DNA from: an uncultured Bacteroidota bacterium
GTDB lineage: Bacteria > Bacteroidota > Rhodothermia > Rhodothermales > DATKEJ01
Assembly: GCA_963768715.1 (NCBI GenBank)
Contig: CAVYJC010000002.1
Location: 272,529-336,528 of the forward strand
Reading direction: 5' to 3'
DNA: 64,000 nt
The translations under genes were made by a program, and so were the position numbers. Positions 28,418 to 56,515 of the stretch are shown here, in pieces; the stretch's first letter is position 1, and each line of letters starts with the position of its first letter. The notes below the pieces were generated by a model, which worked only from the letters and a program-made list of their open reading frames with translations, had not been told where the DNA came from and searched no databases.

Positions 28418-28507
28418 TCATCTTGACGACGGCCCGACAGGCACCGAAGAGTGTGCCGCCAACTACGGACCTAATGGACGACGCGGTAGTGGTCGAGAGG
28501 CCAACCA

Positions 28508-28538: not shown

Positions 28539-28540
28539 TT

Positions 28541-28643
28541 TAGTCATTAGACACTAGTCATTGGTCACTGGTTGGTCGTCAGTCATTAGTCATTGGTCAT
28601 TGGTCATTGGTCACTAGTCATTGGTCACTAGTCATTGGTCATA
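28541..28643. repeat. Heptamer-based low-complexity tract (GTCATTG / GTCACTA units)
   Basis: tagtcattagacactagtcattggtcactgg...gtcattggtcattggtcattggtcactagtcattggtcactagtcattggtcat. Confidence 0.9.
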
Positions 28644-28872: not shown

Positions 28873-29117
28873 CCGGTTTTTCGCACCTAAATCGAGGTAA
28901 CTAAGAGCAGCCCGTGGGGCACGCACCACCTCGTTCTAGCGAATGCGTAGATGATCTGGGGAGCTCCGCGCAGCAGAGCGCCGCGAACCAGGCGCATCCG
29001 AAACCTTCCATCTCTCAACAGATGTATCTCATCATGTATCAGAAAACAGTCTCTCCCAATCCACTTGACTTTCTTCACAACCTACACGTGTTCCTGCGCG
29101 TCCGACAACCTCTCCGC

Positions 29118-41428: not shown

Positions 41429-42457
41429 TTGAAACGATCGACAATCAAGGACGTCGCCGCAGAAGCTGGCGTCGCCATATCAACGGTTTCTCTTGCAATG
41501 AGCGGCAAGGGATATGTTCGTGACGAAACGAAGAGACGGATCAAGCAGGCGGCCGAGCGTCTGCATTATGCCCCCGCAAGGGCCGCCCAGCGATTGGCCT
41601 CGACCCACACGGGTAACGTCGGCTTCGTGCTACGCGAGGATCACTTCACTCGGAGCGAGCCATTCTACACCCGGGTCTTTCTAGGCACTGAATTTGAAGC
41701 GGATCAACATGGGCATTACGTCTTGCTCACGACCGTTCCCAGTCCGTTTGCCCCGGACAGACATCTCCCTCGTTTTCTTCGCGAACGAAACGTGGACGGC
41801 CTGATGATTGCCGGAAAGGTGGATGACGACTTCCTGGCAACATTGGAAGAGTTGTCTCTACCCGTTGTGTTGATCGATTTCGAACACGACGACATCCCAT
41901 CGGTTTTGATTGACAATCAGGGTGGTGCGGCGGCAGCCGTAGAGCACCTCTTGAGCAGGTCGCACCGTCGGATCGCTTTTCTCGGCGCCGACATGACACA
42001 TCCAAGTATTCACGGCCGGCTGGACGGATACCGGCTTGCCATGGCCGCGGCCGACCTGCCGGCTGATGACCGGTTCGTCGTAACGTCGACGAATGGCGAG
42101 CCTAATGCTGAAACAGGCCGGATCCTTGCGGGCCGCCTGTTCGCTATGGATCCCATGCCGTCGGCCGTCTTCTGTGCAAACGACGAACTGGCATTGACAG
42201 TCATTCGATACGCTGCCGAAAAGGGGATTCGTATTCCGGAGGACCTGGCGGTCGTCGGATTTGACGACGTGGAGAGCGCGAAACTCGTATCGCCCGCGCT
42301 CACCACCGTGAGGGTATTCAAGGAGCAGTTGGGTGAATTGGCGGCCCGGTACCTGGCCGAACTGATTTCGAGCAGACCGGAGAGCCGCAATCGGTACGAG
42401 CGAAGCAGTCACACGATCCGAGTTCCAACAGAGCTCGTGATCCGAAATTCAACTTAG
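41429..42457 (+). CDS. LacI-family transcriptional regulator
   Basis: 342 aa. N-terminal HTH MKRSTIKDVAAEAGVAISTVSLAMSGKGYVRDETKRRIKQAAERLHYAPARAAQRLA followed by a periplasmic-binding-protein-like sugar-binding fold. The start codon is TTG. Confidence 0.85.
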   Translation: MKRSTIKDVAAEAGVAISTVSLAMSGKGYVRDETKRRIKQAAERLHYAPARAAQRLASTHTGNVGFVLREDHFTRSEPFYTRVFLGTEFEADQHGHYVLLTTVPSPFAPDRHLPRFLRERNVDGLMIAGKVDDDFLATLEELSLPVVLIDFEHDDIPSVLIDNQGGAAAAVEHLLSRSHRRIAFLGADMTHPSIHGRLDGYRLAMAAADLPADDRFVVTSTNGEPNAETGRILAGRLFAMDPMPSAVFCANDELALTVIRYAAEKGIRIPEDLAVVGFDDVESAKLVSPALTTVRVFKEQLGELAARYLAELISSRPESRNRYERSSHTIRVPTELVIRNST

Positions 42458-42595
42458 AGATCAGGCACACGATGCTTGACTGGGAGAAGTCTACAAACAG
42501 TGTATAGTAAACAGCGGTCAACCGCTGAATATTCAATCAAGAAACGGCCTCAATTCATGATGGCCCGTGCAAGCAGACCTATAAAGGAGGTCGTC

Positions 42596-45334
42596 ATGCG
42601 AAATGTATTACATAAACTCTGGTATCTCGGCATTATGGCGTTTGTCGCCGTCGTGGCTATGGCGCCTCCGGCGCTCGCGCAATACGACGCAAGCGCTCTG
42701 ACCGCCGACAACCCAATGAACCTGTTGTCCAACGGGGGCTTCGAGGTCATGAAGCCGGCGTACTGGGATGCCGATGGTGACGGCGCCAGTTGGACGGACG
42801 CCATGTCGCGTACGCCCGAATGGAGCCTGGAGCTTTCGGGAGCAGGAGAAGCGTCGTGGACGATGGGAGAAGCGGTACGCAACTGGACACCGGCCTTCCC
42901 GGCTGACGGCGAGAAGAACCCTGAGATCGAAATCGGCGGGTGGGTCTACACCGACGGTGTGAACACCTCCCCCGGCGCCGATGATGAAAAATTCCAGCTC
43001 GTCTTCGAGTTCTTCGAGGATGCCACCCAGACGACGAACGTGTTGGGTGAGCCGATCGTGCTGGATCTTCCGCAGGATGCGGCATCGAGCGATGGCTGGG
43101 TTGAGGTCTCGAACGAAGCACTCGGCGCGATCACATTTCCCGGACCGCAGGCCGCGAAGAGCGCGCGCGTGACCTTCCGCAAAGGAGCGAATGCCACAGG
43201 TACGGCATATCTCGACGACCTGTATATCCGGACGGCCGAGGGATCCGACGGATGGTCGGGTGACTTCTTCAATGCGAACATGGACGCGGGAGACAACAAC
43301 TACTACTGGTGGAACAACTTCTCCGGCGGCGTGGCCGACTGGCCTGACACGCAGGATCACATTAATACGGTGAGCAACGGCGACGCGTACGAAGGTGATT
43401 ACAGCTTGCGGCTCGAAGCCAACACCGACAACCAGAACGAAACCGTCGGCATCCTTGAGCGCGTACCCGTCGACGGCCCGATCGTTGTCAGTTTTCGCGT
43501 GAAGTACGAGGGTAATGCCGAACCGGATTCCATTGGAGTCGGGCAGAATAACCTGGGCATTACAGTACTTTGGTACAGCAACATGGAGTCAGGTGCGGCC
43601 GGCTACAATCAGATTGGCGAGGTCAACGTGACGTTGAACAATACGGTGAACGATGACCCCGTCAACGAACAGGTTGTCCCCAAACTGGGACCTTCCGAGG
43701 ACGGGTGGACGCAGTATGCCTTCGTTCTATACCCCTTGGATGGGACCGTCGGGACCGAAATCCGACCCAGATACTGGAACGGGTTTACCGGAGTCTCCTA
43801 CTGGGATGACTTCTTCGTAGCGCCTCTGTCGGAAATAACATCCAGTCTTGCCGATGAGAATGAATTATCCAACGGCGGCTTCGAGGTCATGAAGCCGGCG
43901 TACTGGGAAGCTACCGGAAGCGGTGCGATGTGGTCAGACGCAATGTCACGAACCCCCGAGCGCAGCTTGGAGCTCACTGGCGGAGGTGGACTGACGGGCA
44001 CTGGTGAGGCGTCGTGGACGATGGGAGAAGCGGTACGCAACTGGACACCGGCCTTCCCGGCTGACGGCGAGAAGAACCCTGAGATCGAAATCGGCGGGTG
44101 GGTCTACACCGACGGTGTGAACACCTCCCCCGGCGCCGATGATGAAAAATTCCAGCTCGTCTTCGAGTTCTTCGAGGATGCCACCCAGACGACGAACGTG
44201 TTGGGTGAGCCGATCGTGCTGGATCTTCCACAGGATGCGGCATCGAGCGATGGCTGGGTTGAGGTCTCGAACGAAGCACTCGGCGCGATCACATTTCCAG
44301 GACCGCAGGCCGCGAAGAGCGCCCGCGTGACGTTCCGCAAAGGCGCGAATGCCACTGGTACAGCGTACCTCGACGACCTGTATATCCGCACCGCCGAGGG
44401 ATCCGACGGGTGGTCGGGTGACTTCTTCAATGCGAACATGGACGCGGGAGACAACAACTACTACTGGTGGAACAACTTCTCCGGCGGCGTGGCCGACTGG
44501 CCTGACACGCAGGATCACATTAATACGGTGAGCAGCGGCGACGCGTACGAAGGTGATTACAGCTTGCGGCTCGAAGCCAACACCGACAACCAGAACGAAA
44601 CCGTCGGCATCCTTGAGCGCGTACCCGCCATGTCGGGCGTTCCGCTGCTCGTCAGCTACTTCCTCAAGCACGAAGGGAATGCCATGGAAGACTCCATTGG
44701 CGTCGGACAGAACAACTTGGGAATGGTGTTCCTGTCGTACAGCAGCATGGAGTCAGGTGCGGCCGGCTACAATCAGATTGGCGAGGTCAACGTGACGTTG
44801 AACAGCACGGTGAACGATGACCCCGTTAACGAACAGTTTGTCCCTAAACTGGGTACCTCCGCGGCGGGGAAATCAGCCGGAGCCGACTGGACGCAGTACG
44901 GATTCGTCTACTATCCGCTTGATGGAGCCGCCGGAATCGAGGTTCGTCCCAGGTACCACCAGGCGTTCAGCGGGGTCAGCTATTGGGATAATATTTCTGT
45001 AATTCCGCTGGGTGGACTCCACGTGAACACGGCCGTCGAGGATGACCCCGTGGACGGTTCACTTCCGGAGACCTTCCGTCTCAATCAAAACTATCCAAAC
45101 CCGTTCAACCCGGCGACCACGATCTCCTTCGACCTTAAGCAGTCGCAGATCGTCTCGCTCGGCGTGTACAACGTGCTCGGACAGAAAGTGGCGAGCCTCC
45201 TCGACCGTCAGTTGATGACGGCCGGTACCCAGGCAGTAGAGTTCAATGCAGCCAGCTTGCCGAGCGGTCTGTACCTCTACGTGCTGGAGGTGAACGACCA
45301 AGCCGTCTCCAAGAAGATGGTATTGCTGAAGTAG
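42596..45334 (+). CDS. T9SS-secreted protein with an internally duplicated ~386-aa unit containing CBM4/9-like (NGGFE) jelly-roll modules
   Basis: ORF 42476..45334. Start set at the ATG at 42596, preceded by AAGGAGG (42584..42590). Signal peptide MRNVLHKLWYLGIMAFVAVVAMAPPALAQ. SNGGFEVMKPAYW... occurs twice. CTD QNYPNPFNPATTISFDLKQSQIVSLGVYNVLGQKV...GLYLYVLEVNDQAVSKKMVLLK. Confidence 0.85.
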   Translation: MRNVLHKLWYLGIMAFVAVVAMAPPALAQYDASALTADNPMNLLSNGGFEVMKPAYWDADGDGASWTDAMSRTPEWSLELSGAGEASWTMGEAVRNWTPAFPADGEKNPEIEIGGWVYTDGVNTSPGADDEKFQLVFEFFEDATQTTNVLGEPIVLDLPQDAASSDGWVEVSNEALGAITFPGPQAAKSARVTFRKGANATGTAYLDDLYIRTAEGSDGWSGDFFNANMDAGDNNYYWWNNFSGGVADWPDTQDHINTVSNGDAYEGDYSLRLEANTDNQNETVGILERVPVDGPIVVSFRVKYEGNAEPDSIGVGQNNLGITVLWYSNMESGAAGYNQIGEVNVTLNNTVNDDPVNEQVVPKLGPSEDGWTQYAFVLYPLDGTVGTEIRPRYWNGFTGVSYWDDFFVAPLSEITSSLADENELSNGGFEVMKPAYWEATGSGAMWSDAMSRTPERSLELTGGGGLTGTGEASWTMGEAVRNWTPAFPADGEKNPEIEIGGWVYTDGVNTSPGADDEKFQLVFEFFEDATQTTNVLGEPIVLDLPQDAASSDGWVEVSNEALGAITFPGPQAAKSARVTFRKGANATGTAYLDDLYIRTAEGSDGWSGDFFNANMDAGDNNYYWWNNFSGGVADWPDTQDHINTVSSGDAYEGDYSLRLEANTDNQNETVGILERVPAMSGVPLLVSYFLKHEGNAMEDSIGVGQNNLGMVFLSYSSMESGAAGYNQIGEVNVTLNSTVNDDPVNEQFVPKLGTSAAGKSAGADWTQYGFVYYPLDGAAGIEVRPRYHQAFSGVSYWDNISVIPLGGLHVNTAVEDDPVDGSLPETFRLNQNYPNPFNPATTISFDLKQSQIVSLGVYNVLGQKVASLLDRQLMTAGTQAVEFNAASLPSGLYLYVLEVNDQAVSKKMVLLK
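42719..45016. repeat. Intragenic tandem duplication (1140 + 1158 bp) with a 619-bp near-identical core (42851..43469 vs 44009..44627)
   Basis: Out-of-frame ORFs recur at a +1158 offset (42946..43299 vs 44104..44457). By manual alignment the core differs at 14 positions, 13 of them synonymous. The flanks of the unit are much more divergent. Confidence 0.95.
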
Positions 45335-45422
45335 CCTGATCATCATGGGGCGAGGTCGCTTCAGCCGTCTCGGCTGGGGCGACCTTCCTCCGTGGTGGCA
45401 TACCAAACTGAAGGATTCGGTT

Positions 45423-48079
45423 GTGAGGTTTTTCGTCCGTTCTCTGGCCGGTCTGGTCGCGTGCATGGCCCTGGGCGCCGGCATTGCGTCAGGTCAAACG
45501 GGCAAGATTGCCGGTCGCGTCATTGAAGAGGCAACCGGAGATCCCCTCCCCGGCGTAAACGTGATAATCCCGGGCACGCTGCAAGGCAGTACGACCGACG
45601 TCGACGGCTACTATTTCATCCTCAACGTAAAACCGGGTACGTATCCGGTCCGCGCTTCTTTCATCGGCTATTCGGCCGTGACGATCGACGGCGTTAGAGT
45701 GATGATCGACAAGACGGCGACGGCGGATTTCCGTTTGAGTGAGGAAACAGTCGAAGGGCAGGAGGTTGTCGTCGTCGCCCAGCGGCCGTTTGGTAGAAAA
45801 GGACCGAACTTCCACCGCGACATCCGTGTCTGCCGAGCGCTTGCAGGCTCTTCCAGTCCTCACGTTCAACGACGTGATCAATCTGCAGGCCGGCGTTGTG
45901 GAAGGACACTTCCGAGGCGGCCGAACGGGCGAAGTCTCGTATCTGGTCGACGGCGTCCCCATCAACGACGTCTATGATCAGACCTACTCCTACCAGGTGG
46001 AAAACAACGCGATACAGGAGATACAGGTCATTACGGGCACGTTCAATGCGGAATACGGGCAGGCCCAGTCCGGGATCGTGAACATCGTCACGAAGGATGG
46101 GGGCCGACTCGTATCGCGGCACGTTCAGTGCGTACGGCGGCGACTACGCCAGCACAAATACCGATCTTTTCACGCAGATCGACGATGTATCGCCGAAAGG
46201 GACTTATGAGCTCCAGGGATCAGTGGGAGGTCCGGTACTAAACGATCGTCTGACGTTCTTCGCCTCCGGCAGATACTGGCACGACGACGGCTATTTGTAC
46301 GGCCGGCGCGTCGTCAAGCCGGTTACGGCCGGACCCGGCGAGGGCCAGGTGGTGACGGTCGATGGCAGGCAGGTGTTCGTCCCGGCATTGGGAGACAGCT
46401 CGTACGCCTCGATGAACTGGAGAGATCAGTGGACAGGGAGCCTCAAGTTTTCCGCGCGACCACACGCCGGCACGCGCCTGACGGTGTCGTTCCTGACTCA
46501 GGAGGACAAAGGGCAGGACTACGACCACTACTTCCGTTACAACCCAGACGGCATTCCGACGACGTACGGTACTTCCCGATCGATCACAACGACGTTGAGC
46601 CACTTCCTCAGTGGACGCAGTTTCGTCGAGATCAAGGGGGCGTACTTCACCAATGAGGTCGACACGCATCTGTACGAAGATCCGCTCGACCCGCGCTGGC
46701 CGGCAGACGATGCCATTCGAACACTCGGTGGAAACTTCGCGTTCGTCCGCGGCGGTGCGCGCATGGAGCACTTCGCGCGAACGACCAAGACTCGCGTTGT
46801 GAGCATGAACTTCACGAGCCAGGTCACGCGACAGCATCAGATCAAGACAGGCTTTGAACTCAAAGGTCACAGCCTGGACGTCGACCAGTTCGACGTCCTA
46901 AATAACTCCTCGACGAATTTCCAGCCCGCCATCCCCGAGGCGGGAACACCCGCCCACGTACGGGTCTCGGCGGATCCGATCGAACTGGGCGCCTTCGCGC
47001 AGGCCAAGATGGAGTTCGACTTCATGATCATGAACCTCGGCGTTCGGCTCGACTACTTCGACGCGAAGGGAGACGTACTCCAGGACTTCGGTCGACCGCA
47101 GACGTCCGAACGCGTGCCTTCCAGCGCGAAATGGCAGCTCTCTCCGCGCTTCGGCCTCGCCTACCCGCTGTCGGAGCAGGGCGTCGTCCACATCTCGTAC
47201 GGGCATTTCTTCCAGATGCCTCCGTTCGAGTATCTCTACACCAACTCGGATTACATTTACGACCCTGAAGAGGGCGTGGGCCGGGCGTTCGGCTTCGCCG
47301 ATCTTGAACCGCAGGAAACCGTCGCTTACGAAATCGGACTGCAGCAGGCTTTCACCGAGACGTTTGGCGCCGACTTCACGGCCTACTTCAAAGACATTCG
47401 AAATCTTCTCGGAACGCGTCTTGAGGTCATTGAGCCGGGCTTCAACGAGCCGTTCCCACTCGAGAAGTACGGCCGATACGTGAATCGTGATTATGGGCAG
47501 GTTCGAGGATTCACGGTCTCGTTCGAGAAACGAATGTCCCAAGGGTTTGCTCTCGACATAGATTACACCTTCCAGATCGCCGAAGGGAATGCCAGCGATC
47601 CTCGATCGGTGTTGCTTGACGAAGAACAAGGGATCGAATCGGAAAAGCAGCTCGTCCCGCTCGATTGGGATCGTCGTCATCAACTGATTACGAGCTTCAC
47701 GGTCGGAGAGCCCGGCAACTGGCTGGCCACAATAAACGGACGGCTCGGCTCAGGCCTGCCCTACACGCCCTCCCTGGCAGACGAACGGATCGGACTGGAG
47801 AATTCCGCCAGAAGAAAGGGAGACGTATCCTTCGATTTGTTCGCAACGAAGGAAGTCAAACTGGGAGGCCTGCCGATTTCGGTCTTTACGCGCGTCTTCA
47901 ACCTCCTCGATACGCGGAATGAGATCGACATCTACTCCGATACCGGACGCGCCTTCCCGAATCTGAGATTTCAGCCCGGCGAACCGCAGGGATTGAACAC
48001 CAAAGACGAATACCTGAGAAGGCCCGATTTCTACTCGGCGCCTCGACAGGTCACAATCGGCCTTTCGCTTACGATATAA
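45423..48079 (+). CDS. TonB-dependent receptor with carboxypeptidase-regulatory-like domain (triad copy B), interrupted by two homopolymer frameshifts
   Basis: The reading runs through ORFs 45345..45977, 45739..46209 and 46097..48079. Likely GTG start at 45423 (VRFFVRSLAGLVACMALGAGIASGQ) with AAGGA 8 nt upstream. Frame changes at T-run 45789-45791 and G-run 46099-46103. Collinear with 10544..13267 (e.g. NDVINLQAGVVEGHFRGGRTGEVSYLVDGVPINDVYD). Ends ...VTIGLSLTI. Confidence 0.8.
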
Positions 48080-48084
48080 GTTCG

Positions 48085-51000
48085 ATGAGGAGCATCCTTC
48101 TGTCATTCTTACTTGCGCTTGCAACGACCGGGATCGCCGCTGCCCAGCGGATCCCGGATCCGAAGCAGGGCAACCCACGCCTCACGCAGTGGGGCGTGCT
48201 GGACGGCAACCGGGTCAGGACGCTCTTCGCCAACCACGGAGAAATCGCCCGGTGGCCCGATCAACCGTCCGGCGAATGGCCGAAAGGAAGTGGACACTCC
48301 TACGTCGACGGCGTTGCGTTCATCGTTTCCGTTAAGACGAAAGACGGCCTTGGAAACACAATAAAGCCACAAGCTACTAATTATAGAGAGTTTATAGATC
48401 GCGATCCGACGACCTCCGAGGTATGGGGCTGGGCGCCTGTGCCCGGATATTCCAATCCCCGCCAGGAGTCACCGGCACGCAGTGACGATCCGAGTACCTG
48501 GCCGAGCGAATGGCCGGATCGACCCATCGACTGGGCGGGCCAGTGGAACGGCTTCTTCGGCCGGGGCGTGGAGAACGCGGACGTCGAAACCTACTTCGTG
48601 TTCGACGACAGCCCCGACAGGGAGTGGACCGGCCCGAACCACAAGTTCTTTCCCTGCGCAGGAGATACGTCGCGGGGCGGGATTGGGATCGAAGTCGCCG
48701 CGCGCGGCTTTCAATGGAGCCACCCGCTCGCACAGGATGTGATCTTCTGGCTTTACGAAATCACGAACGAATGCGACGTCGACTACGACAACGTCTTCTT
48801 CTCGCAGTACATCGACTGGGGCGTCGGCGGAACCGACGACTCGGGTGACGACGAAGGCGCGTACAACACGAAGCTCGACCTCGCATTCGCCTGGGACTTC
48901 GACGGTGACGGGACGCCTGCCCGCTGGAGCCCGGTCGGGACGGCCGGATATGCCTTCCTCGAATCGCCCGGCAATTCAACGGATGGTGTAGACAACGACC
49001 AGGACGGCATAACCGATGAACGCCGCGACAGCGGGCCCGGACAGCTCATCGAGGGGAAGGATGCTATCCTTGCCTACGCACAGGCCAACTACAACCTGGA
49101 CGACTTCAACACCTTCTTCCTCGGAATCGAACAGCGACCGGCGTATCTCGCCGGACGATGGTGGACCGGCGACGAGGAAATGGACTGGGTGGGATACTCG
49201 GACGTGAACGGAAACGGCGTCTGGGACGTTGACGAGCCAGCTCAATGACGATGTGGGGGAAGACGGCCTCTCCCCGACTTCTCCCAATTATCCTGGTCGG
49301 GACGTCGGCGAGGGCGACGGTCAGCCGACGTCGGGTGAGCCCAATTTCGACAAACTCGACAAAGACGAGTCCGATCAAATCGGCCTGACCGGGTTTGCTG
49401 TCTTCAATGTCCACGATTACGAATTGCTCGACGACGCCCAGAACTATGACATCTTCTCGCGGGCGCTTCCGCCCTTCGAGGACATCTTGCTGGAAGGCGG
49501 CCGCAACCTGGGCATGTTCTTTTCGTCGGGGCCGTTTCCGTTGAAGGCGGGGCAGACCGAACGTTTCTCGATGGCTCTTTTGTTTGCCAACAAGGACTTC
49601 ACGGATCCGACCAACATCGCCAACTCGGCGCTGGCTCGAAAGAAGGAGACGGTACAGCAGATCTACAACGCGGACTATCGTTTCGCCCGGCCTCCGAACA
49701 AGCCCACGCTGACGGTCATCCCCGGCGACAACCAGGTGACCCTCACCTGGGACGACGTCGCAGAAAGATCGTTCGACCCCTTCCTCAGAGAGTTCGATTT
49801 CGAAGGGTACATGATCTTCCGATCGACCGAGCCGAATTTCGAGGAAAACCTCAGCATTACAGACGCTTTCGGAAATCTGATCTTCCAGAAGCCCATTGCA
49901 CAGTATGACCTGGTAAACGGACTCCGCGGCCCGCATCCGGTAGGCGTAAACGGGGTCCAATTCAATCTCGGAACCGACAGTGGGCTGAAACACACGTTCA
50001 TCGACCGCGACGTCCGGAACGGACAGACCTACTACTATGCCGTCGTGGCCTATGACCGCGGCTTGGTCGCGCGCAACGCAGACAGTACCGTTGTGACTAC
50101 GCCAGACGGCATGGTCCGCGGGCTGGCCCCGAGTCTCACGACGGCGATTATCAAGAATGATGTGGCGGGCAATGTCGTGGCCGACATCAACACGGGCTTT
50201 GCCGTTCCGAGGGCGCCGGCCGCCGGGTATGTCGGTCCCCAACTCGAGAACATGGTACAGTCGGTGCGCGGAACGGGAAACGTGGACGTAGAGATCGTCG
50301 CGCCGGGACTCGTGACCCAGTCGGCCGACTACGAGCTGGATTTTGAGAATCCCTCGCTCTGGCAGAACGAGGGAGACGTCACCTACGCACTGGTGAACAA
50401 GACCACCGGAACGACGGTCGACTCGGGTCCGATCACAAACGGAAACGCGGAGATCGCTCCGTTCGAGGGCTTTGTGGTGAATATCGAGTCCGCAACATCC
50501 GTGACCGTATCCGATGCCACTACGCGACTAACGGATGACGCCACCACGTTTCGAGCGGTCGTCAAACCTGCCTCCAAGATTCCTCTCGTGCAGTCACGAT
50601 TCGTTGCGATTCCGGATGACTTCGTGCTGCATTTCACCGACACGATCTCAGACACGTCTCTGGTTCTTGGATTCGGCATGCGAGCCATCCCGACACCGTT
50701 TTATATAGAGAATGCGGCGGGTGTACGCCAGCCGTTTATCGTGACGGAGGACGATGCGGACCTCCGCAACGGCCAGTACGACCACGGGGAGATGATCATC
50801 CTCGTCGCGGGTATCGAACCCGGTCTGCCCCCGGTACGGGACGCAGGCGCCTGGCGGGCGTCATGGGCGATCCAGCTCGTGCCGCCTGATCCTGTGCTCG
50901 AACCGGATTTACCTTTGATTCCGCCCGTGCCTGGATCCCGGCTCGAATTCGAAACGACCAAACCCTTTCAGACGGGCGATCGCGTCACATTCACGACGCA

Positions 51001-51352
51001 TCCGCCGTTCCTCGATGAGGCACAGGAAGCCAAGGACCTGGAGAATATCTTCGTCGTTCCCAATCCGTACGTAGCTACCAGCGAGTTCGAGCCGCCCAAC
51101 ACCTACAGAGCCGGTCGCGGGGAGCGCCGCATCTATTTCATGCATCTGCCGCGCCAGTGCACGATCCGGATCTACACGATTTCGGGTCAGCTCGTCCAGA
51201 CGCTGCAACACGAGTCGAGCATCGACGACGGACAATTGTCGTGGGATCTCGTGCAGCGCGACGGCATGACGATCTCATACGGGATCTATCTGTACCACGT
51301 CGACGCGCCGGGCGTGGGTGAATTTGTGGGACGATTCGGGGTGATTAAATGA
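48085..51352 (+). CDS. Giant secreted protein with Asp-rich motifs and T9SS-type CTD (triad copy B), one frameshift near 49232-49245
   Basis: ORFs 48085..49248 and 49229..51352. Signal peptide MRSILLSFLLALATTGIAAAQ. Collinear with 6900..10532 (GVDNDQDGITDE, GEGDGQPTSGEPNFDKLDKDESDQIGL, YRFARPPNKPTLTVIPGDNQVTLTW). CTD VVPNPY...GRGERRIYFMHLPRQCTIRIYTISGQLV...GIYLYHVDAPG...GRFGVIK. Confidence 0.8.
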
Positions 51353-51761
51353 GACGGTGGACTGAACATATCGCCCTCAGTTACAAATCCGACGTCACGG
51401 CGCTGGCCCCGTTGTGCCCTCCTGGAGCCGCAATAACCGCCCTGGGCCTGACCCCGATGGGCCCCGACGGAGCCGGGACAACCACCCCGGGCTTCAGCCT
51501 GGGGGGGCAGGTTGCGAATTCTAGTACCTCCGTCTTGGGGCTGCAGCCTCAAATATCTTTTGCGGCGCCGTTACCCCGTGATGAGGACCACCCCCGGCTG
51601 CGCACTCCTTCGTCGCGCTTAGACCGCCCCCTCCAGAGGGGGACAGCGGGGTACCAAACGGATGGCCGCCCTGCCCTTCGCGGGGATCGAGAGCTATCAA
51701 ATCGGCCTACCTCTCGGCCGCGGACACCCGCCTGTTTCAAACGGATGACCGCCTTGGCTCA
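51353..51761. other. 409-bp non-coding, hairpin-rich spacer between the giant gene and the PorV-like gene of triad B (the equivalent gap in triad A is 7 nt)
   Basis: GC-rich hairpins CCCCGGGC ttca GCCTGGGG (51485..51504) and CCCCCT ccag AGGGGG (51627..51642). Direct repeat CAAACGGATGRCCGCC at ~51655 and ~51735. No convincing ORF. Confidence 0.7.
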
Positions 51762-52766
51762 TTGATCCTGCTTCTGGCGACCTTGTTCTCCACCGTCGCC
51801 TCCGCCCAGGGCGTCTCAAAAGTCGGCACGACTTCGGCCGATTTCCTACAGATTGACGTCGGACCCCGGGCCGTTGCCATGGGCGGCGCCTTTGTGGCTG
51901 CGGCGAACGATGCGTCATCGCTCTATTGGAATCCGGCCGGCCTCGCCAACATGAAGGACAGTGAGCTCATCGCAGCGCACTCGGAGTGGCTCGGCGATCT
52001 CAACTTCGACTATCTCGGTGTCGCACTGAACATGGGCGTCGCCGGCGTCGCGGGCGTTTCTGTGACCATGCTGTCCATGCCCGACATGCTTGTGCGTACT
52101 GTCGATCGACAGGAGGGCACCGGGGAGACCTACGACGCGGCCGATATGGCACTCGGATTGTCTTACGGGAAAGCGGTGACCGATCGTTTCTCGATAGGCT
52201 TGACCGCGAAATACATCCGACAGCGAATCTGGCACTCCGCTGCAACGGGGATGGCGCTGGACATCGGGACTCAGTTTCGAACCGAATTCGCGGGTGGCCT
52301 GGTTATCGGAGCGACGATTTCCAACTTCGGCACCGACATGAAGCTCAATGGTCGAGATCTGCGTACGTTCGTCGATCCGGATCCGAGCCAGCTCGGCAAC
52401 AACAACCGTATTCCCGTCAATTACGAACTCGACACACACAAACTGCCGCTCAATTTCCAGTTCGGCGTTAGCACAAACCCGATCAATTCGCGAATGCACC
52501 GGGTCACGCTGAATGCCGACGCGATCCACCCCAATTCGAACAATGAAAGCCTGAATCTGGGCGCAGAGTACTGCTTCCAGGAACGAATTTTCTTTAGAGG
52601 GGGGTATCGGGGCCTCTTTCTGGATGGAACCGAGGGGGGCATTTCCGGAGGATTGGCTGTACACCAGGCACTCTTCGAGGGCGGCCTTGCCAAACTAGAC
52701 TACGCGTTCCGCAGCGGAGGACGTCTCGGAGACGTCCACGTGGTCGGGTTTGGCCTTACGTTCTAA
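51762..52766 (+). CDS. PorV/PorQ-family outer-membrane beta-barrel (triad copy B)
   Basis: 334 aa. GVSKVGTTSADFLQIDVGPRAVAMGGAFVAAANDASSLYWNPAGL. Ends ...VVGFGLTF. The track start is a TTG; an ATG at 51745 (MTALAH*) sits in another frame, so the N-terminus may carry another indel. Confidence 0.75.
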   Translation: MILLLATLFSTVASAQGVSKVGTTSADFLQIDVGPRAVAMGGAFVAAANDASSLYWNPAGLANMKDSELIAAHSEWLGDLNFDYLGVALNMGVAGVAGVSVTMLSMPDMLVRTVDRQEGTGETYDAADMALGLSYGKAVTDRFSIGLTAKYIRQRIWHSAATGMALDIGTQFRTEFAGGLVIGATISNFGTDMKLNGRDLRTFVDPDPSQLGNNNRIPVNYELDTHKLPLNFQFGVSTNPINSRMHRVTLNADAIHPNSNNESLNLGAEYCFQERIFFRGGYRGLFLDGTEGGISGGLAVHQALFEGGLAKLDYAFRSGGRLGDVHVVGFGLTF

Positions 52767-52769: not shown

Positions 52770-54069
52770 GTGGCAAACTGGACCCTCATTCTGCTCCTGG
52801 TGGCGTTCACCGGTTGCGCACGATCCGAACGCCGGGAGAGCACGGGGACGAGCAATGAGGTCGAACTGACCTACTGGTCCTCGCAGAATCCGAGTGAGAG
52901 GAAGTTGGCCCAGGTCCTGGTCGAGGAGTGGAACGCCGAGCATCCGCACATCCAGGTGCGTATGCAGCCACTGCCGGCGGGTCGATCGAGCGAGGAAGTT
53001 CTTCTGGCCGCCATCGCTGCCGGAACGACGCCGGACATCTGTTCGAACGTCTGGCCAGGCATCGTCGAGGATCTCGTCCGCGCCAATGCGGTCGTGCCGC
53101 TCGACCGATTCGCCGACTTCGACTCGCTTGCCGCCGCACGGTATCCGGAAGGGACCTTGAAGCGCTTCGAGGCGATCGACGGCGTCAGCTATCAGATTCC
53201 GTGGAAGACCAATCCGATCATGATGCTCTATAACCGCAAGCTCTTCCGGGAAGCGGGCATCGACCACACCTCCAAAAACCTACAGCGAGTACCTGGCGGC
53301 CGCCGAGCGCATCAGCAAGGACCTGAACGGCGACGGTCAGTTCGACCGATGGATAGGCTATCGCGACATCCGACCCGTCTGGCACGAACGACGCTTCGAT
53401 TATTTTGCCTTCTACGTGGGCGCCTCCGGCGGCAGGACCTTCTTCGACAACGGCGAGCTTGCTGTCGACACGGTGGCCTCCGACAAGGTATTCCACTTCT
53501 TCAGAGACCTTTACAAAGGAGGCTACTTTCCTCTGACGACCTTCCAGGGGAGTCCCGTCTTGAGCGGAAAGATCGCGACCGAGTTTACGGGTCCGTGGCA
53601 ATTGCGCTGGCTCAAGGACAATGCTCCGCCGGATTTCGAATATGGATTTGCGCCGCTGCCGCATCCCGACGACGTGCCCGAAAACCTCTTCACCTTCGGG
53701 GATTTCAAGAGCATCACGATTTTCAGCACGACGGAGCACCCGAACGAATCCTGGGCGTTTGCGAAATACCTCGTCAGCCGAGAGGCCGATTTACGGCTAC
53801 TCGAAATTGGAGGTCAGATTCCGGTCCGCAAGGCGCTACTGACCGACTCGCTCTTTGCTGATTTCTTTGAGCGAGAGCCGGGAATGAAGCCGTTTGCGCT
53901 GGCCGCACCCTACAGCCGGGGCGTCGACAGCATCTCTTCGCTTCAGGAACTGCTCGATGCCGTGGCACAGCAGTTCGAGGCGGGGTCCGTCTACGGGATC
54001 TATCCCTCAGAGGAAGCCACCCGGAAGATGATCGCCCGCATGAAGCTGATCAGGGAGTGGGAGTCATGA
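52770..54069 (+). CDS. ABC transporter extracellular sugar-binding lipoprotein (CUT1), one frameshift at A-run 53274-53278
   Basis: ORFs 52770..53861 (real only up to ~53270) and 53416..54069. GTG start and lipobox LLLVAFTGCARS. Deleting one A from ccaaaaacc restores ...GIDHTSKTYSEYLAAAERISKDLNGDGQFD..., collinear with the locus-A SBP (...PETFDDFLKMAKDLTVDTDGDGRPD...). Confidence 0.8.
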
Positions 54070-54962
54070 ATCTCGCCCTGACAAACCCATTTCGACGCAA
54101 ACATTCCAAGTCGCGCACCGGCATCCTGTTCGCGGCACCCTACCTGGTCCACCTCCTCCTCTTCTTCGGCTATCCGTTCATCTTCGCGTTCGTACTCATC
54201 TTCCATCGCTGGGACATCGTGACCGACATGGAGTTTGCCGGTCTGAAGAACGTAGTAAGGCTGCTGGGCGACGACGTCTTCTTTCAGGCACTTTTCAACA
54301 CGGGTTTCTTCCTCACCATCCACATCCCGCTTCAAATCGCCGCCGCCCTGTTTTTCGCGTCGCTGCTCAATACAAAGCTCAAAGGGCGCGGACTCTTCCG
54401 AACCATATACTTCCTCCCCGTCGTGGTATCGGGCGTCGTCGTCACGATCCTCTTCCAACAGCTTTTCGCCTTCGACACGGGCTTTGTCAACGCCGTGCTT
54501 TCTTCGCTCGGCGGAAAGCGGGTTCCCTGGCTGGTCTCGCCGCAGTGGGCGATGCCGTCCATTGCGCTGATGGCCACGTGGAAGAACGTCGGACTCTACG
54601 TCATCCTCTTCCTGGCCGGATTGCAGGACATCCCTGAATCACTGTACGAAGTGGCTCAAATTGACGGCGCCAATGCCTGGCAGCAGTGGCGGAACATCAC
54701 GTTGCCCATGCTCAATCCGATGATGGTGACGGTCGTCGTGCTTTCGACCATCGGGGGATTCTCCCTGTTCATCGAGCCGTACGTGCTCACGGGCGGCGGA
54801 CCGTTGAACTCCACGATTTCCGGGCTCCTCTACATCTACAATCAGGCCTTCTATTTCAACCACATGGGCTACGCCGCCACGCTGGGGATATTCTTCGCGA
54901 TCGTGATCATGGTCGTCGTGCTCCTGCAGCGAAAGTTCGTCGAGACGGAGGCGTACGAATAG
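54066..54962 (+). CDS. Carbohydrate ABC transporter permease (MalF-like)
   Basis: ORF 54057..54962. The ATG at 54066 overlaps the SBP stop (ATGA). EAA loop YEVAQIDGANAWQQWRNITLPMLNPMM. Confidence 0.85.
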   Translation: MNLALTNPFRRKHSKSRTGILFAAPYLVHLLLFFGYPFIFAFVLIFHRWDIVTDMEFAGLKNVVRLLGDDVFFQALFNTGFFLTIHIPLQIAAALFFASLLNTKLKGRGLFRTIYFLPVVVSGVVVTILFQQLFAFDTGFVNAVLSSLGGKRVPWLVSPQWAMPSIALMATWKNVGLYVILFLAGLQDIPESLYEVAQIDGANAWQQWRNITLPMLNPMMVTVVVLSTIGGFSLFIEPYVLTGGGPLNSTISGLLYIYNQAFYFNHMGYAATLGIFFAIVIMVVVLLQRKFVETEAYE

Positions 54963-54963
54963 C

Positions 54964-55794
54964 ATGTCTAGAAATCGGATGTCCCTTCCCCGCCTGCTCG
55001 CATACCTCGCCCTCGTGCTCGGCGCCGTGGTCTTCGCCTATCCGTTTATCTGGATGGCCCTCGCCACGCTGAAGCCTGAGGTCGAGCTCAGCAATTTGAA
55101 TGTCTTTCCGAGGCAGTGGTCCCTCGAAAGCTACGCTGTCGTCTTTCGGAATATCCCCATCGAACGTGCGTTCCTGAACAGCGCCGTCCTTGCCCTCTTC
55201 GTCACGACCTCGGCGCTCGTCTTCGGATCGATGGCCAGCTACTCGCTCTCCAAGCTGAAATGGAAGGGGCGAGACGCAGTCTTCACGCTGATACTGTTCA
55301 CGATGATGGTCCCGTTCCTCGTGCTCTTGATCCCCCTGTACACGCTGGTCGTCCGTTTCGGCTGGACCGACTCACTGGCCGGACTGGCCATCCCGTTCAT
55401 GATGAACGCGACGGTCGTGCTCATCCTTCGCCAGAGCTTCCTCAGCATACCCCAGGATCTTCTCGACGCGGCAAGAATCGACGGTTCGGGGGAGCTGAGA
55501 ATCCTGTTCACGATCGTTTGGCCGCTCTCCGTTCCGGCCCTCGTCACGGCGGGAATCATCGTGTTTCTCGGAAACTGGAACGAGGTGCTCTGGCCGCTCA
55601 TGGTGGTACGAGAGGAGCACTGGATGACCATGCCGCAAATGGTGACCCTGTTTTCCGTCGGCGGAGGAGCCGAGGGCAAGCTGGGGCCGCGACTCGCTGC
55701 CGCCCTGCTGCTGGCGCTGCCGGTGATCGTCGCCTACATGCTCTTCCAGAAACGGTTTATATCGAGCCTCGCATCAACGGGATTGAAGGGATGA
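54964..55794 (+). CDS. Carbohydrate ABC transporter permease (MalG-like)
   Basis: 276 aa with EAA loop LDAARIDGSGELRILFTIVWPLSVPAL. Confidence 0.85.
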   Translation: MSRNRMSLPRLLAYLALVLGAVVFAYPFIWMALATLKPEVELSNLNVFPRQWSLESYAVVFRNIPIERAFLNSAVLALFVTTSALVFGSMASYSLSKLKWKGRDAVFTLILFTMMVPFLVLLIPLYTLVVRFGWTDSLAGLAIPFMMNATVVLILRQSFLSIPQDLLDAARIDGSGELRILFTIVWPLSVPALVTAGIIVFLGNWNEVLWPLMVVREEHWMTMPQMVTLFSVGGGAEGKLGPRLAAALLLALPVIVAYMLFQKRFISSLASTGLKG

Positions 55795-55827
55795 AGATGG
55801 CAGATGGAAGATGGAAGATGGAAGACT
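55793..55827. repeat. Tandem heptamers GMAGATG x5 starting within the permease stop codon
   Basis: gaagatg gcagatg gaagatg gaagatg gaagact. Confidence 0.9.
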
Positions 55828-56515
55828 TGTCCCGAGCGAGCGAGCAGACATCGCTGATATGCTCTCCCTGTGGATCGAGCGACGAGGGATGGCAGATGGC
55901 GAGGTAGCCACCCGGGCTTTAGCCCGGCGAGGCAGGCAGCGAATCCGAGGGAGTTCCTCGTGGGGCTGAAGACCAAGAAATATGTTTGGCCGCCGATGGG
56001 AGCCGTCTCGGGAGCCCGTGAAGGAAACAGTGAGACGCAAACAACTTACGGTCCCCCCTGAGGGGGCAGGCTGGATCCCGAACACAGTTCGGAGGAAGCC
56101 GGGGGGTGGATCCGCTGCAAAATCTCACGACTATCCGACATCCACCCCTCCCCGCTCCGCGGGCTCCCCAAGGGAACCGGACACGTCTACTATTCCCTCC
56201 GAGCCGGGCTTCAGCCCAGCGAGGCGGGCGGCCCCACAGAGTCTGGCCCAACATCCGCACTTCGCACGGCCGTAAACAGCCGTGCTACAAGGAGATCCCG
56301 CCCTGCTGCCGCAGGGCTGCGTGGTAGCGCGATTCTCAAGCCCGCCCTCCTTATTCGTCCACATCTGAGCCCGCTTCAGCGGGCGTGTCACTGCTCTAGC
56401 ACGGGGATTTATTCCCGTGCGGGCTGATCGAGGCGCTGTCTCGCCGACGAAGTCCGCCGCAAAACGGGTATTTCGGACTTTTGGGACAGCCCCTGGCTGC
56501 CCAATTCGACGCAGA
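55828..56515. other. ~690-bp non-coding spacer packed with short GC-rich hairpins (REP-like)
   Basis: CCGGGC ttta GCCCGG (55912..55927), CCCCC tga GGGGG (56054..56066), CCGGGC ttca GCCCAG (56204..56219), GCCCTGC tgcc GCAGGGC (56300..56317), GCCCGC ttca GCGGGC (56369..56384), GCACGGG...CCCGTGC (56399..56420). ORFs here are Pro/Arg/Gly-rich and overlap each other. Confidence 0.7.

What the first reader, a model, noticed from the sequence alone, without database searches (positions are those of the whole stretch)
45423..52766. Second, inverted paralogous triad (copy B) wired to a different enzyme set: the triad behaves as a substrate-agnostic chassis
Seen in sequence: 45423..48079, 48085..51352 and 51762..52766 are collinear paralogues of the copy-A genes. 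Long conserved blocks include:
- NDVIELQAGVVDGHFRGGRIGEVGYWVDGVPVTDVYD versus NDVINLQAGVVEGHFRGGRTGEVSYLVDGVPINDVYD.
- GEGDGQPTPGEPNFDALDVDETDQVGL versus GEGDGQPTSGEPNFDKLDKDESDQIGL.
- NYQFAKPPDKPTLSAVPGDKKVTLFWN versus DYRFARPPNKPTLTVIPGDNQVTLTWD.
Overall the copies are clearly diverged, so this is an old duplication, not an assembly repeat.

Copy A sits with GH13 and near GH97/SusCD (alpha-glucan). Copy B sits behind a LacI regulator and a CBM4/9-like T9SS protein, and in front of a CUT1 ABC importer, an unknown lipoprotein and two GH130 genes; the GH130 family acts on beta-mannosides. In both loci a T9SS protein with an internally duplicated binding-like module lies next to the triad.

Inference: the triad is a reusable uptake module recruited to different polysaccharide loci, as SusC/D pairs are in PULs.
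Basis: partly seen in the sequence, partly recalled or inferred. Interest (0 to 1): 0.75.

Follow-up and report, generated by a model that had tools for sequence, protein, structure and literature searches.

The report
SusD-less outer-membrane sugar-uptake gene cassette
The window holds two old paralogous copies of an uncharacterised three-gene outer-membrane cassette (a TonB-dependent transporter, a 1,100-residue secreted protein and a PorV-like barrel) that is conserved across many phyla related to Bacteroidota, always sits in sugar-utilisation loci, and probably stands in for the SusC/SusD pair.

Summary
Copy B (45345..52766, + strand) is collinear with copy A (13351..5834, − strand) at 37-44% protein identity. 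Both encode a TonB-dependent receptor (TBDR), a ~1,100-1,200-aa protein with no Pfam family ("mid protein"), and a PorV/PorQ-family barrel.

One caveat: copy B reads through only if three +1 frameshifts are repaired, two in B1 and one in B2. Two more lie in downstream genes of the operon.

The triad is a fixed cassette. In 90 related loci the TBDR precedes the mid gene in 72 of 72 cases with room, and the PorV-like gene follows in 78 of 78. Gene trees of all three genes give the same A and B clades (bootstrap 99-100), so they duplicated and were inherited together.

"Substrate-agnostic" is wrong. The whole B operon recurs from Rhodothermales to Fidelibacterota: LacI, T9SS protein, triad, ABC importer, lipoprotein, GH130. 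The A lineage always sits with GH13/CBM20 starch genes. Another lineage sits with GH94.

The mid protein is all-β, is not a lipoprotein, and ends in a T9SS C-terminal domain (CTD).

Best mechanism (inferred): it is exported by the T9SS and held on its cognate PorV-like barrel, as PorZ is on PorQ. There it serves the TBDR as a glycan-capture partner.

I found no literature on this cassette.

The parts
41429..42457 (+). LacI-family regulator at the head of locus B
   Evidence: Pfam LacI, Peripla_BP_1 and Peripla_BP_3. It holds the same position in orthologous loci L001, L088, L089 and L090.
42476..45334 (+). 952-aa T9SS cargo protein made of two tandem ~390-aa modules; putative surface glycan-binding protein
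   Evidence: Por_Secre_tail 39.6 bits and TIGR04183 40 bits. Internal repeat 42837-43136 versus 43995-44294 is 98% identical. Orthologues show a faint CBM_4_9 hit.
45345..48079 (+). B1: TonB-dependent receptor with an N-terminal carboxypeptidase-regulatory-like domain, a TonB box (EVVVVA), a plug and a barrel; broken by two +1 frameshifts (about 45789-45791 and 46099-46103)
   Evidence: The repaired protein hits CarbopepD_reg_2, Plug and TonB_dep_Rec_b-barrel. Frames were mapped. It is not SusC/RagA: the orthologue scores 83 bits against a cutoff of 368.
48085..51352 (+). B2: 1,088-aa 'mid' protein with a Sec signal peptide and no lipobox. Domains: N-terminal beta-supersandwich-like domain, Asp-rich loops, FN3, two variable beta domains and a T9SS-CTD-like C-terminus. 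One +1 frameshift near 49239.
   Evidence: No Pfam family. Orthologues are 50-81% identical, all intact and all named hypothetical. AlphaFold model of an 81%-identical orthologue has pLDDT 87. Its C-terminal domain matches the flanking cargo CTD profile at hhalign probability 96.7%. Weak hits to the C-termini of PorU and PorZ.
51353..51761 (+). 409-nt intergenic insert between B2 and B3 that carries a short repeated motif; orthologues have 1-37 nt here
51762..52766 (+). B3: PorV/PorQ-family outer-membrane beta-barrel; a paralogue, not the PorV or PorQ orthologue
   Evidence: NF033709 scores 202.7 bits (cutoff 90). PorV equivalog scores 79.6 (cutoff 250) and PorQ equivalog 89.6 (cutoff 220). 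Pfam PorV and UPF0164 also hit.
52770..54069 (+). CUT1 ABC solute-binding lipoprotein; frameshifted in an A5 run near 53265
   Evidence: SBP_bac_1 and SBP_bac_8 hit two separate ORFs. Frame map, the frameshift site, the lipobox.
54057..55794 (+). Two ABC permease genes (54057..54962 and 54964..55794)
   Evidence: BPD_transp_1 hits in both. Each aligns in a single frame with its orthologue.
56417..57930 (+). About 470-aa lipoprotein of unknown family, conserved in B-type loci; one frameshift (about 57010-57112)
   Evidence: No Pfam or NCBIfam hit. Lipobox LLTSC. Frame map.
57932..60021 (+). Two GH130 genes (57932..58930 and 58927..60021) without signal peptides; cytoplasmic beta-mannoside phosphorylase-like enzymes
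   Evidence: Glyco_hydro_130 at 197.9 and 86.4 bits. The nearest NCBIfam model is beta-1,2-mannobiose phosphorylase, below its cutoff. N-termini.
10544..13351 (-). A1: paralogous TonB-dependent receptor (935 aa, intact)
   Evidence: CarbopepD_reg_2, Plug and OMP_b-brl_4. TIGR04056 scores 60 bits against a cutoff of 368.
6900..10532 (-). A2: paralogous mid protein (1,210 aa, intact)
   Evidence: No Pfam family above threshold. Homologues are all hypothetical. AlphaFold model of the N-terminal 633 aa has pLDDT 90.
5834..6892 (-). A3: paralogous PorV/PorQ-family barrel (352 aa)
   Evidence: NF033709 scores 230.7 bits.
296..5579 (-). Downstream T9SS cargo genes of locus A: a 748-aa two-module protein (3333..5579) and a GH13 alpha-amylase with a T9SS CTD (296..3343)
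   Evidence: Pfam. Orthologous loci keep the same order, and the equivalent protein carries CBM20/X25.

Best explanation
**What locus B is.** Locus B is this genome's copy of an ancient, widely conserved beta-mannoside utilisation operon.

**What the triad is.** The triad is a SusD-less outer-membrane glycan capture and import module.

**Proposed mechanism.**
1. The mid protein B2 has a Sec signal peptide, no lipobox and a T9SS-type C-terminal domain. [quoted passage not shown]
2. B2 stays on the cell surface, held by its retained C-terminal domain on the dedicated PorV/PorQ-family barrel B3. PorZ is held on PorQ and PorU on PorV in the same way.
3. Next to the TonB-dependent transporter B1, B2 and the neighbouring T9SS binding protein (952 aa) capture the glycan and feed oligosaccharides into B1.
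4. A periplasmic lipoprotein and the CUT1 ABC importer pass the oligosaccharides to two cytoplasmic GH130 phosphorylases.
5. LacI regulates the operon.

Copy A is the alpha-glucan (starch) version of the same machine.

**Shown here.**
- The paralogy of the two copies.
- The invariant gene order.
- Co-inheritance of the three genes.
- Lineage-specific enzyme contexts.
- The domain make-up of the proteins.

**Inferred.**
- T9SS export of B2.
- Tethering of B2 to B3.
- A physical B1-B2-B3 complex.
- The glycan-binding role of B2.
- The identity of the substrate.
For: **Paralogy and frames.**

**Domains.**
- TBDR with CarbopepD_reg, Plug and barrel.
- PorV_fam at 203-231 bits.
- The mid protein's C-terminal domain is homologous to the flanking type-A CTDs: hhalign probability 96.7%, E 3.6e-10.
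- It gives weak hits to the C-termini of PorZ and PorU.
- Only 6 of 101 mid proteins carry a lipobox-like motif.
- The AlphaFold model is all-beta and has no catalytic (alpha/alpha)6 domain.

**Conserved cassette.**
- TBDR is upstream in 72 of 72 loci with room, and the PorV-like gene is downstream in 78 of 78.
- At least 590 hits in the species-representative genomes, across Rhodothermales, Balneolaceae, Ignavibacteria, Calditrichota, WOR-3, Marinimicrobia, Fidelibacterota, Stahlbacteria and KSB1.
- 1,696 clusters at 50% identity match the family profile at E<=1e-30.

**Co-inheritance.**
- Distance-matrix correlations between the three genes are 0.87-0.91.
- The A and B clades recur in all three gene trees with bootstrap 99-100.

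**Context.**
- Whole-operon synteny of B with GH130 and the ABC importer.
- A-type loci carry GH13-T9SS and CBM20-T9SS proteins.
- Other lineages sit with GH94, a GH144-like protein and GH66.
- T9SS-CTD cargo genes flank the triad: at +2 in 49 loci and at -2 in 15.
- The FN3 and C-terminal domains are the best conserved parts between A and B: 0.53 and 0.50, against 0.22-0.40 elsewhere. This fits a conserved docking role.

**Precedent.** PorZ and PorU keep their CTDs and are anchored on the PorQ and PorV barrels (PMC10947112, PMC5562754).
Against: - There is no direct evidence for any protein-protein contact, for surface exposure or for glycan binding.
- The mid protein's C-terminus fails the curated T9SS thresholds: TIGR04183 15.9 bits against 23, CHU_C 16.5 against 27.
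- Structural matches of the N-terminal domain are weak: TM about 0.2, E 1e-3 to 1e-2.
- In this window copy B carries frameshifts in 4 of its 11 genes, so it may not be expressed as drawn.
- Three loci have an extra gene between the mid gene and the PorV-like gene.
- One locus, L091, has the four-gene core with no CAZyme gene nearby.
- The substrate of locus B is unresolved. GH130 points to beta-mannosides, and the nearest model is a beta-1,2-mannobiose phosphorylase, but the score is below cutoff.
Confidence: 0.6

Rival explanations
1. The PorV-like barrel and the mid protein form a locus-specific T9SS attachment or shuttle module. They resemble a private PorV/PorU or PorQ/PorZ pair. Their job would be to collect and hold the CTD-bearing enzymes and binding proteins encoded next door (GH13-T9SS, CBM20-T9SS, the 952-aa protein) around the TBDR. 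This would build a utilisome-like assembly. The mid protein itself would not be the glycan binder.
For: - T9SS-CTD cargo genes flank the triad in most loci, at +2 in 49 loci and -2 in 15.
- PorV is known to bind type-A CTD cargo (PMC5562754).
- The mid protein's only sequence and structure hits in T9SS terms are to PorU and PorZ.
- The minimal unit in L091 is the triad plus one CTD protein.
Against: - The mid protein shows no PorU-like peptidase domain and no PorZ-like beta-propellers in the model.
- Its N-terminal domain is strongly conserved within each substrate lineage (0.71) but much less between lineages (0.40). That pattern fits a substrate-related role.
- Nothing here tests cargo binding.
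Confidence: 0.2
2. Copy B is a decaying, non-functional locus in this organism. The five frameshifts are real mutations, so only copy A and the SusC/D system work here.
For: - Five frameshifts fall in about 12 kb of one operon: two in B1, one each in B2, the binding protein and the lipoprotein.
- No frameshift was seen in the large ORFs of the first 27.9 kb.
- The deposited assembly calls B2 as a 707-aa fragment (P0185).
- Two unusual intergenic inserts of 409 and 622 nt with a repeated motif interrupt the operon.
- Clearly degraded gene remnants lie at 30.9-32.2 kb.
Against: - Three of the five shifts sit in short homopolymers (TTT, G5, A5). The three in B1 and B2 are single-base insertions. 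This is the signature of sequencing error in a MAG.
- After repair there are no in-frame stops, and identity to intact orthologues stays at 50-81%.
- Frameshifted genes also occur outside the locus, at 27.9-30.2 kb.
Confidence: 0.3
3. The triad is not a glycan system. It is a general nutrient or lipid uptake unit, with a TBDR plus a FadL-like hydrophobic-substrate channel, that merely lies next to CAZyme genes.
For: - The PorV family is related to FadL/Toluene_X, with weak Pfam hits.
- L091 has no CAZyme neighbours.
Against: - Association with CAZyme and CBM genes is systematic and follows lineage across phyla.
- Spacing within the operon is tight, from -13 to +18 nt apart from the two large gaps, and the operon is under a LacI-type sugar regulator.
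- The Toluene_X score is below its threshold: 21-22 bits against 29.7.
Confidence: 0.05

Closest known systems
SusC/SusD pairs of Bacteroidota polysaccharide utilisation loci (PULs)
   Same: - A TonB-dependent outer-membrane transporter with an N-terminal carboxypeptidase-regulatory-like domain is encoded immediately upstream of its obligatory surface partner.
- The pair is embedded in loci with CAZymes, surface glycan-binding proteins and a regulator.
- It has diversified into many substrate-specific paralogous lineages.
   Different: - The transporter is not in the SusC/RagA family: 60-83 bits against a cutoff of 368. The window's own SusC scores 588.
- The partner is not a SusD lipoprotein. 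It is a ~1,100-aa all-beta protein with a T9SS-type C-terminal domain, and a third obligatory gene encodes a PorV/PorQ-family barrel.
- Inner-membrane uptake in locus B is by an ABC importer.
T9SS attachment complex PorU-PorV / PorZ-PorQ of Porphyromonas gingivalis
   Same: - A large surface protein with a non-canonical, retained C-terminal domain is paired with a PorV/PorQ-family outer-membrane barrel.
- The mid protein's only database hits are to the C-termini of PorU and PorZ.
   Different: - The barrels score below the PorV and PorQ equivalog thresholds.
- The mid protein has no PorU sortase domain and no PorZ propellers.
- The pair is encoded with a TBDR in catabolic loci, in several copies per genome. 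It is not a single-copy secretion component.
Type B CTD proteins with their cognate PorP/SprF-like barrels (for example SprB-SprF, PG1035-PorP)
   Same: The genetic logic is the same: a T9SS-secreted surface protein is encoded next to its own dedicated outer-membrane barrel, which anchors it.
   Different: - The barrel family differs (PorV/PorQ, not PorP/SprF).
- The C-terminal domain type differs (type-A-like, not type B).
- A TonB-dependent transporter is part of the unit.
The Rhodothermus marinus xylan locus (Rmar_1070 TBDR, Rmar_1071 hypothetical protein with a Por C-terminal domain, Rmar_1072 hypothetical, Rmar_1073 hypothetical with a CTD) and the Ignavibacterium album beta-1,2-glucan cluster
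   Same: - The published gene tables show the same pattern in a xylan PUL: TBDR, then a CTD-bearing hypothetical protein, then a hypothetical protein, then a CTD protein (PMC6987092).
[quoted passage not shown]
   Different: I could not fetch these sequences, so membership in the triad family is a lead from the papers and was not tested here. Both papers leave the genes as hypothetical.

Membership tests
SusC/RagA TonB-linked outer membrane protein (TIGR04056) | Full-length score above the curated cutoff of 368.25 bits | tested here: not met
   A1 scores 60.2 bits, on the N-terminal domain only. The intact B1 orthologue from L088 scores 82.9 bits. The positive control, the window's SusC at 22109..25231, scores 588.3 bits.
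SusC/SusD PUL (CAZy PULDB definition) | An adjacent SusD/RagB-family lipoprotein gene | tested here: not met
   The gene after the TBDR has no Pfam family and no SusD_RagB hit. Only 6 of 101 family members have a lipobox-like motif.
TonB-dependent receptor (generic) | Plug domain, 22-strand barrel domain and a TonB box | tested here: met
   Plug scores 37.8 bits and TonB_dep_Rec_b-barrel 91.4 bits for the repaired B1. The TonB-box-like motifs EVVVVA (B1) and EVVVVTA (A1) can be read.
PorV/PorQ family (NF033709) | Score above the cutoff of 90 bits over the full length | tested here: met
   A3 scores 230.7 bits and B3 202.7 bits over profile positions 1-326 of 326. The L088 orthologue scores 197.8 bits.
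T9SS PorV (NF033710) or PorQ (NF033711) equivalogs | Score above the equivalog cutoff (250 for PorV, 220 for PorQ) | tested here: not met
   PorV model: 93.1 (A3) and 79.6 (B3). PorQ model: 114 (A3) and 89.6 (B3). They are paralogues within the family.
T9SS type A C-terminal sorting domain (TIGR04183 / PF18962) | A C-terminal ~75-aa beta-sandwich that scores above the curated threshold | tested here: inconclusive
   - B2 scores 15.9 bits on TIGR04183 against a cutoff of 23, and A2 scores 16.5 on CHU_C against 27.
- The profile-profile comparison with the flanking cargo CTDs gives probability 96.7%, E 3.6e-10.
- BLASTP of the 748-aa protein's C-terminal domain against B2 gives 3e-5.
- The AlphaFold model ends in a beta-sandwich.
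T9SS cargo (functional) | Secretion that depends on the T9SS translocon | not testable with these tools
   This needs secretion assays in a T9SS mutant.
Glycoside hydrolase family 130 | Pfam PF04041 above the gathering score of 26 | tested here: met
   197.9 and 86.4 bits for 57932..58930 and 58927..60021. The subfamily and substrate are not resolved: the best NCBIfam equivalog scores 264 against 450.
CUT1 ABC sugar importer | An SBP_bac_1 binding protein, two BPD_transp_1 permeases and a MalK-type ATPase | tested here: inconclusive
   The binding protein and two permeases are present. No MalK homologue is in the window. Orthologous loci encode one nearby.

The most novel reading that the evidence does not exclude
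Many FCB-group phyla (Rhodothermota, Balneolota, Ignavibacteriota, Calditrichota, Marinimicrobia, Fidelibacterota, WOR-3 and others) would share one main outer-membrane glycan-import machine, and it would be a previously unrecognised three-component complex. In it a non-SusC TonB-dependent transporter works with a T9SS-exported partner protein that is non-covalently docked on a private PorV-family barrel. The complex would be the functional counterpart, and perhaps the evolutionary forerunner or sister, of SusC/SusD. It would also link type IX secretion mechanistically to TonB-dependent nutrient uptake.
Probability: 0.4. Interest if true: 0.85.

Novelty: new variant of a known kind. Interest (0 to 1): 0.7.

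Why it matters
PUL prediction and most thinking about glycan foraging in Bacteroidota and their relatives rest on the SusC/SusD pair. Genomes without SusD are read as lacking such systems.

A strictly conserved, very large family of TBDR, CTD-protein and PorV-like cassettes inside CAZyme loci would change that picture:
- The family has at least 1,700 clusters at 50% identity and hits in at least 590 species representatives.
- It would give a second genomic marker for polysaccharide loci in abundant environmental phyla, including Marinimicrobia, Ignavibacteria and Rhodothermia.
- It would assign a role to thousands of 'hypothetical' 1,100-aa proteins.
- It would show that PorV-family barrels serve as general docking platforms beyond secretion itself.

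The idea can be tested directly in cultivated carriers such as Roseithermus, Rhodothermus, Ignavibacterium and Melioribacter.

Tried and rejected
1. **Assembly repeat.** Rejected: identity between the copies is only 37-46% and each copy has its own orthologues.
2. **Rfam scan of the whole window.** No hit, so the ORF-poor stretch 28-32.6 kb is not rRNA or another known RNA. It holds frameshifted and degraded genes instead.
3. **Viral contigs scan for the mid protein.** No relatives.
4. **Metagenome scan with B2.** Only 6 loci came back, so I used look-ups by exact protein instead.
5. **Look-up of the source contig through P0185.** Not on record.
6. **Sequence search of the PDB with the family profile.** Only the PorU C-terminus, at E 0.047.
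7. **Foldseek with the full-length and N-terminal models.** Only weak partial matches, TM about 0.2, to the N-terminal beta-supersandwich of GH94/GH116/GH149, to FN3 and to PorZ. There is no catalytic domain, so I dropped the idea that the mid protein is a known glycosidase, phosphorylase or PorU-like sortase.
8. **Promoter and terminator scan of locus B.** Counts were no higher than in shuffled sequence, so it is not informative.
9. **MalK ATPase in the window.** None found.
10. **Seven literature searches** for PorV together with TonB-dependent receptors, PULs, Ignavibacteria or Rhodothermus. No description of the triad.
11. **A bias to keep in mind.** The 80 genome loci kept by the scan are those closest to A2. 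They over-represent starch-type loci and say little about the full range of substrates.

Full report
**1. The observation**

Copy A lies on the − strand:
- A1: 10544..13351, 935 aa.
- A2: 6900..10532, 1,210 aa.
- A3: 5834..6892, 352 aa.

Copy B lies on the + strand at 45345..52766. tblastn of the A proteins on the B region gives collinear matches for all three genes. After alignment the identities are 0.40, 0.37 and 0.44. This is an old duplication, not an assembly repeat.

- B1 needs two single-base deletions to read through: the TTT at 45789-45791 and the G5 at 46099-46103.
- B2 needs one, near 49239.
- Mapping intact orthologous proteins on the window shows two more frameshifts in the same operon: the ABC binding protein (A5 run near 53265) and the 470-aa lipoprotein.
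- The deposited assembly carries the B2 break, because the public protein P0185 is the 707-aa fragment.
- Frameshifted and degraded genes also occur at 27.9-32.2 kb.
- None appears in the large ORFs of the first 27.9 kb.
- I cannot tell sequencing error from recent decay. Three of the five sites sit in short homopolymers, and no in-frame stops appear after repair. Both points lean towards error.

**2. What the genes are**

- **A1 and B1** are TonB-dependent receptors. They have an N-terminal carboxypeptidase-regulatory-like domain, a TonB-box-like EVVVV(T)A motif, a plug and a barrel. They are not SusC/RagA: they score 60-83 bits against a cutoff of 368, while the window's own SusC (22109..25231) scores 588.
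- **A3 and B3** are clear PorV/PorQ-family barrels (231 and 203 bits, cutoff 90). They fall below the PorV and PorQ equivalog thresholds, so they are paralogues.
- **A2 and B2** have no Pfam family, and every public homologue is 'hypothetical'.
  - They carry a Sec signal peptide. A lipobox is rare in the family, in 6 of 101 members.
  - Their last ~100 residues are homologous to the type-A T9SS sorting domains of the neighbouring cargo proteins: hhalign probability 96.7%, E 3.6e-10; BLASTP 3e-5.
  - These residues stay below the curated HMM thresholds. Their closest database matches are the C-termini of PorU and PorZ.
  - An AlphaFold model of an 81%-identical B2 orthologue is confident (pLDDT 87, pTM 0.79) and almost entirely beta.
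  - Its domains are an N-terminal domain remotely like the beta-supersandwich of GH94/GH116/GH149 enzymes, Asp-rich loops, an FN3 domain, two further beta domains and the C-terminal sandwich.
  - No catalytic domain was recognised, and no PDB entry matches it overall.

**3. Surroundings in the window**

Locus B reads, in order:
- LacI.
- A 952-aa T9SS cargo protein with two tandem modules.
- B1, B2 and B3.
- A lipoprotein solute-binding protein and two permeases.
- A 470-aa lipoprotein.
- Two GH130 genes without signal peptides.

Most gaps are −13 to +18 nt. The two exceptions are inserts of 409 and 622 nt.

Locus A reads A1, A2, A3, a 748-aa two-module T9SS protein, then GH13 with a T9SS CTD.

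**4. Comparative evidence**

*Distribution.*
- A scan of one genome per species found at least 590 relatives of the mid protein. They come from Rhodothermales, Balneolaceae, Ignavibacteria, Melioribacteraceae, Calditrichota, WOR-3, Marinimicrobia, Fidelibacterota and Stahlbacteria. KSB1 and Latescibacterota appear in the protein searches.
- A profile search of 1.84 billion cluster representatives found 1,696 at E<=1e-30.

*Gene order.* In the 90 loci fetched by that point:
- The TBDR gene precedes the mid gene in 72 of 72 loci with room.
- The PorV-like gene follows in 78 of 78.
- Two loci were first missed because of ORF-calling problems.
- Three loci have one extra gene in between.
- A fourth such case, L092, came from a later look-up.

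*T9SS neighbours.* T9SS-CTD cargo genes flank the triad in most loci.

*Co-inheritance.*
- The distance matrices of the three genes correlate at 0.87-0.91.
- The A clade is the window's copy A plus six Rhodothermales or Balneolales loci. It is recovered with bootstrap 100/100/100 in the TBDR, mid and PorV-like trees.
- The B clade is copy B plus L001, L088 and L089. It is recovered with 100/100/99.
- Adding the FCB-group and Fidelibacterota loci gives 96/100/33.
- So the three genes duplicated and were inherited as a unit.

**5. Substrate association**

- **B lineage.** The entire B operon is syntenic in Roseithermus sacchariphilus RA, a second Rhodothermales-related genome, Cyclonatronaceae, Fidelibacterota and an FCB-group MAG. 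A more distant relative adds a GH5-like gene.
- **A lineage.** All A2-like lineages sampled, from Rhodothermales to Ignavibacteria, Calditrichota, WOR-3 and Marinimicrobia, sit with GH13-T9SS enzymes, CBM20/X25 T9SS proteins or amylo-1,6-glucosidase.
- **Other lineages.** These sit with GH94, with a GH144-like 'glycoamylase' plus CBM30, or with GH66.
- **Published gene tables.** A Rhodothermus marinus xylan locus and an Ignavibacterium album beta-1,2-glucan cluster show what looks like the same arrangement, left as hypothetical (PMC6987092, PMC8861115). I did not verify those sequences.

The module is therefore reusable in architecture but lineage-specific in substrate. It is not agnostic.

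Within the mid protein:
- The FN3 and C-terminal domains are the best conserved parts between A and B (0.53 and 0.50).
- The N-terminal domain is conserved within lineages (0.71) but much less between them (0.40).
- The two middle beta domains evolve fast (0.22-0.25).

**6. Mechanism**

Established knowledge:
- PorZ and PorU keep their CTDs and are anchored on the PorQ and PorV barrels.
- Type-B CTD proteins are anchored on adjacent PorP-like barrels (PMC10947112, PMC5562754).

By analogy I propose the following:
1. The mid protein is exported by the T9SS and docked through its retained C-terminal domain on its private PorV-family barrel.
2. It sits beside the TBDR and acts as the glycan-capture partner that SusD and the surface glycan-binding proteins provide in Bacteroidota.
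3. Oligosaccharides pass through the TBDR and the periplasm (lipoprotein) and are taken up by the ABC importer.
4. Cytoplasmic GH130 enzymes then phosphorolyse them.

Every step from export to complex formation is inferred.

The main rival is that the barrel and mid protein are a private attachment module for the locus's other CTD cargo. A separate open point is whether copy B is functional in this organism.

**7. Novelty**

Seven full-text searches found no description of this cassette. Where it appears in published loci its genes are called hypothetical. I rate it a new variant of a known kind: a TonB-dependent, PUL-like glycan uptake system. Interest is 0.7. The conservation, family size and T9SS link would surprise specialists and can be tested directly, but the mechanism is still inference.

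Noticed in passing
window 51353..51761 and 55795..56416: Two unusually long intergenic inserts (409 and 622 nt) interrupt the otherwise tightly packed locus B operon. Orthologues have 1-37 nt at the first site and 6-81 nt at the second. The inserts share an ~83-nt stretch at 71% identity. The motif CCGGGCTTYAGCC occurs three times in the window, only here (51487, 55912, 56204), against 0.19 expected by chance. This may be a small repeat or mobile element, or a regulatory RNA. There is no Rfam hit.
   Followed up: partly
window 45789, 46099, 49239, ~53265, ~57010-57112; also 27900-32200: Frameshifts are patchy. Five fall in locus B and several more in 27.9-30.2 kb (an FN3/T9SS protein at 25895..28550 and a beta-propeller-like gene at 28914..30160). 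Degraded remnants of an FN3/T9SS gene lie at 30.9-32.2 kb. No frameshift was seen in the large ORFs of 1-27.9 kb. Either assembly quality is locally poor or these are real pseudogenes.
   Followed up: partly
window 42837-43136 vs 43995-44294; 3692-3991 vs 4631-4930: Both two-module T9SS proteins next to the triads contain internal tandem repeats with 300-nt segments that are 97-98% identical, while the flanking repeat parts are only 74-80% identical. This suggests gene conversion between modules, or assembly collapse.
   Followed up: partly
window 15399..25231 (− strand): A hybrid locus: a canonical SusC (588 bits on TIGR04056) and a SusD, followed by GH97 and then a CUT1 ABC binding protein and two permeases. 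A SusC/D pair feeding an ABC importer is unusual compared with classical Bacteroidota PULs. It also shows that this genome runs both outer-membrane systems side by side.
   Followed up: partly
window 13419..15392 (+); loci L003, L004, L017, L019, L026, L047, L059, L061 and others: A ~650-aa GDSL-like acylhydrolase with C-terminal TPR repeats lies next to copy A and recurs next to A-type triads in about 25 loci across phyla. A SurA-like PPIase recurs in 24 loci. In L086 and L087 a PPIase-like gene sits between the mid gene and the PorV-like gene. These may be assembly or chaperone factors for the module.
   Followed up: partly
L013 13499-16348; L092 13895-14956; L091: Variants of the cassette. 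L013 (WOR-3) has two tandem mid-protein paralogues before the PorV-like gene. L092 has a 353-aa gene with a weak NucS_C hit inserted there. L091 has the core of TBDR, mid protein, PorV-like barrel and one T9SS protein among housekeeping genes with no CAZymes.
   Followed up: no
window 25895..28550, 32644..33975 and remnants 30.9-32.1 kb: A small family of T9SS cargo proteins built from repeated FN3-like modules (recurring motifs 'TLLTPLNGA' and 'YYWRAQS') occurs between the two triad loci. One copy is intact, one is frameshifted and one is degraded.
   Followed up: no
window 56417..57930 and orthologues (L088 17356-18768): The conserved ~470-aa lipoprotein between the ABC permeases and the GH130 genes has no Pfam or NCBIfam family. 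From its position it could be an unrecognised periplasmic glycosidase or binding protein of the beta-mannoside pathway.
   Followed up: partly
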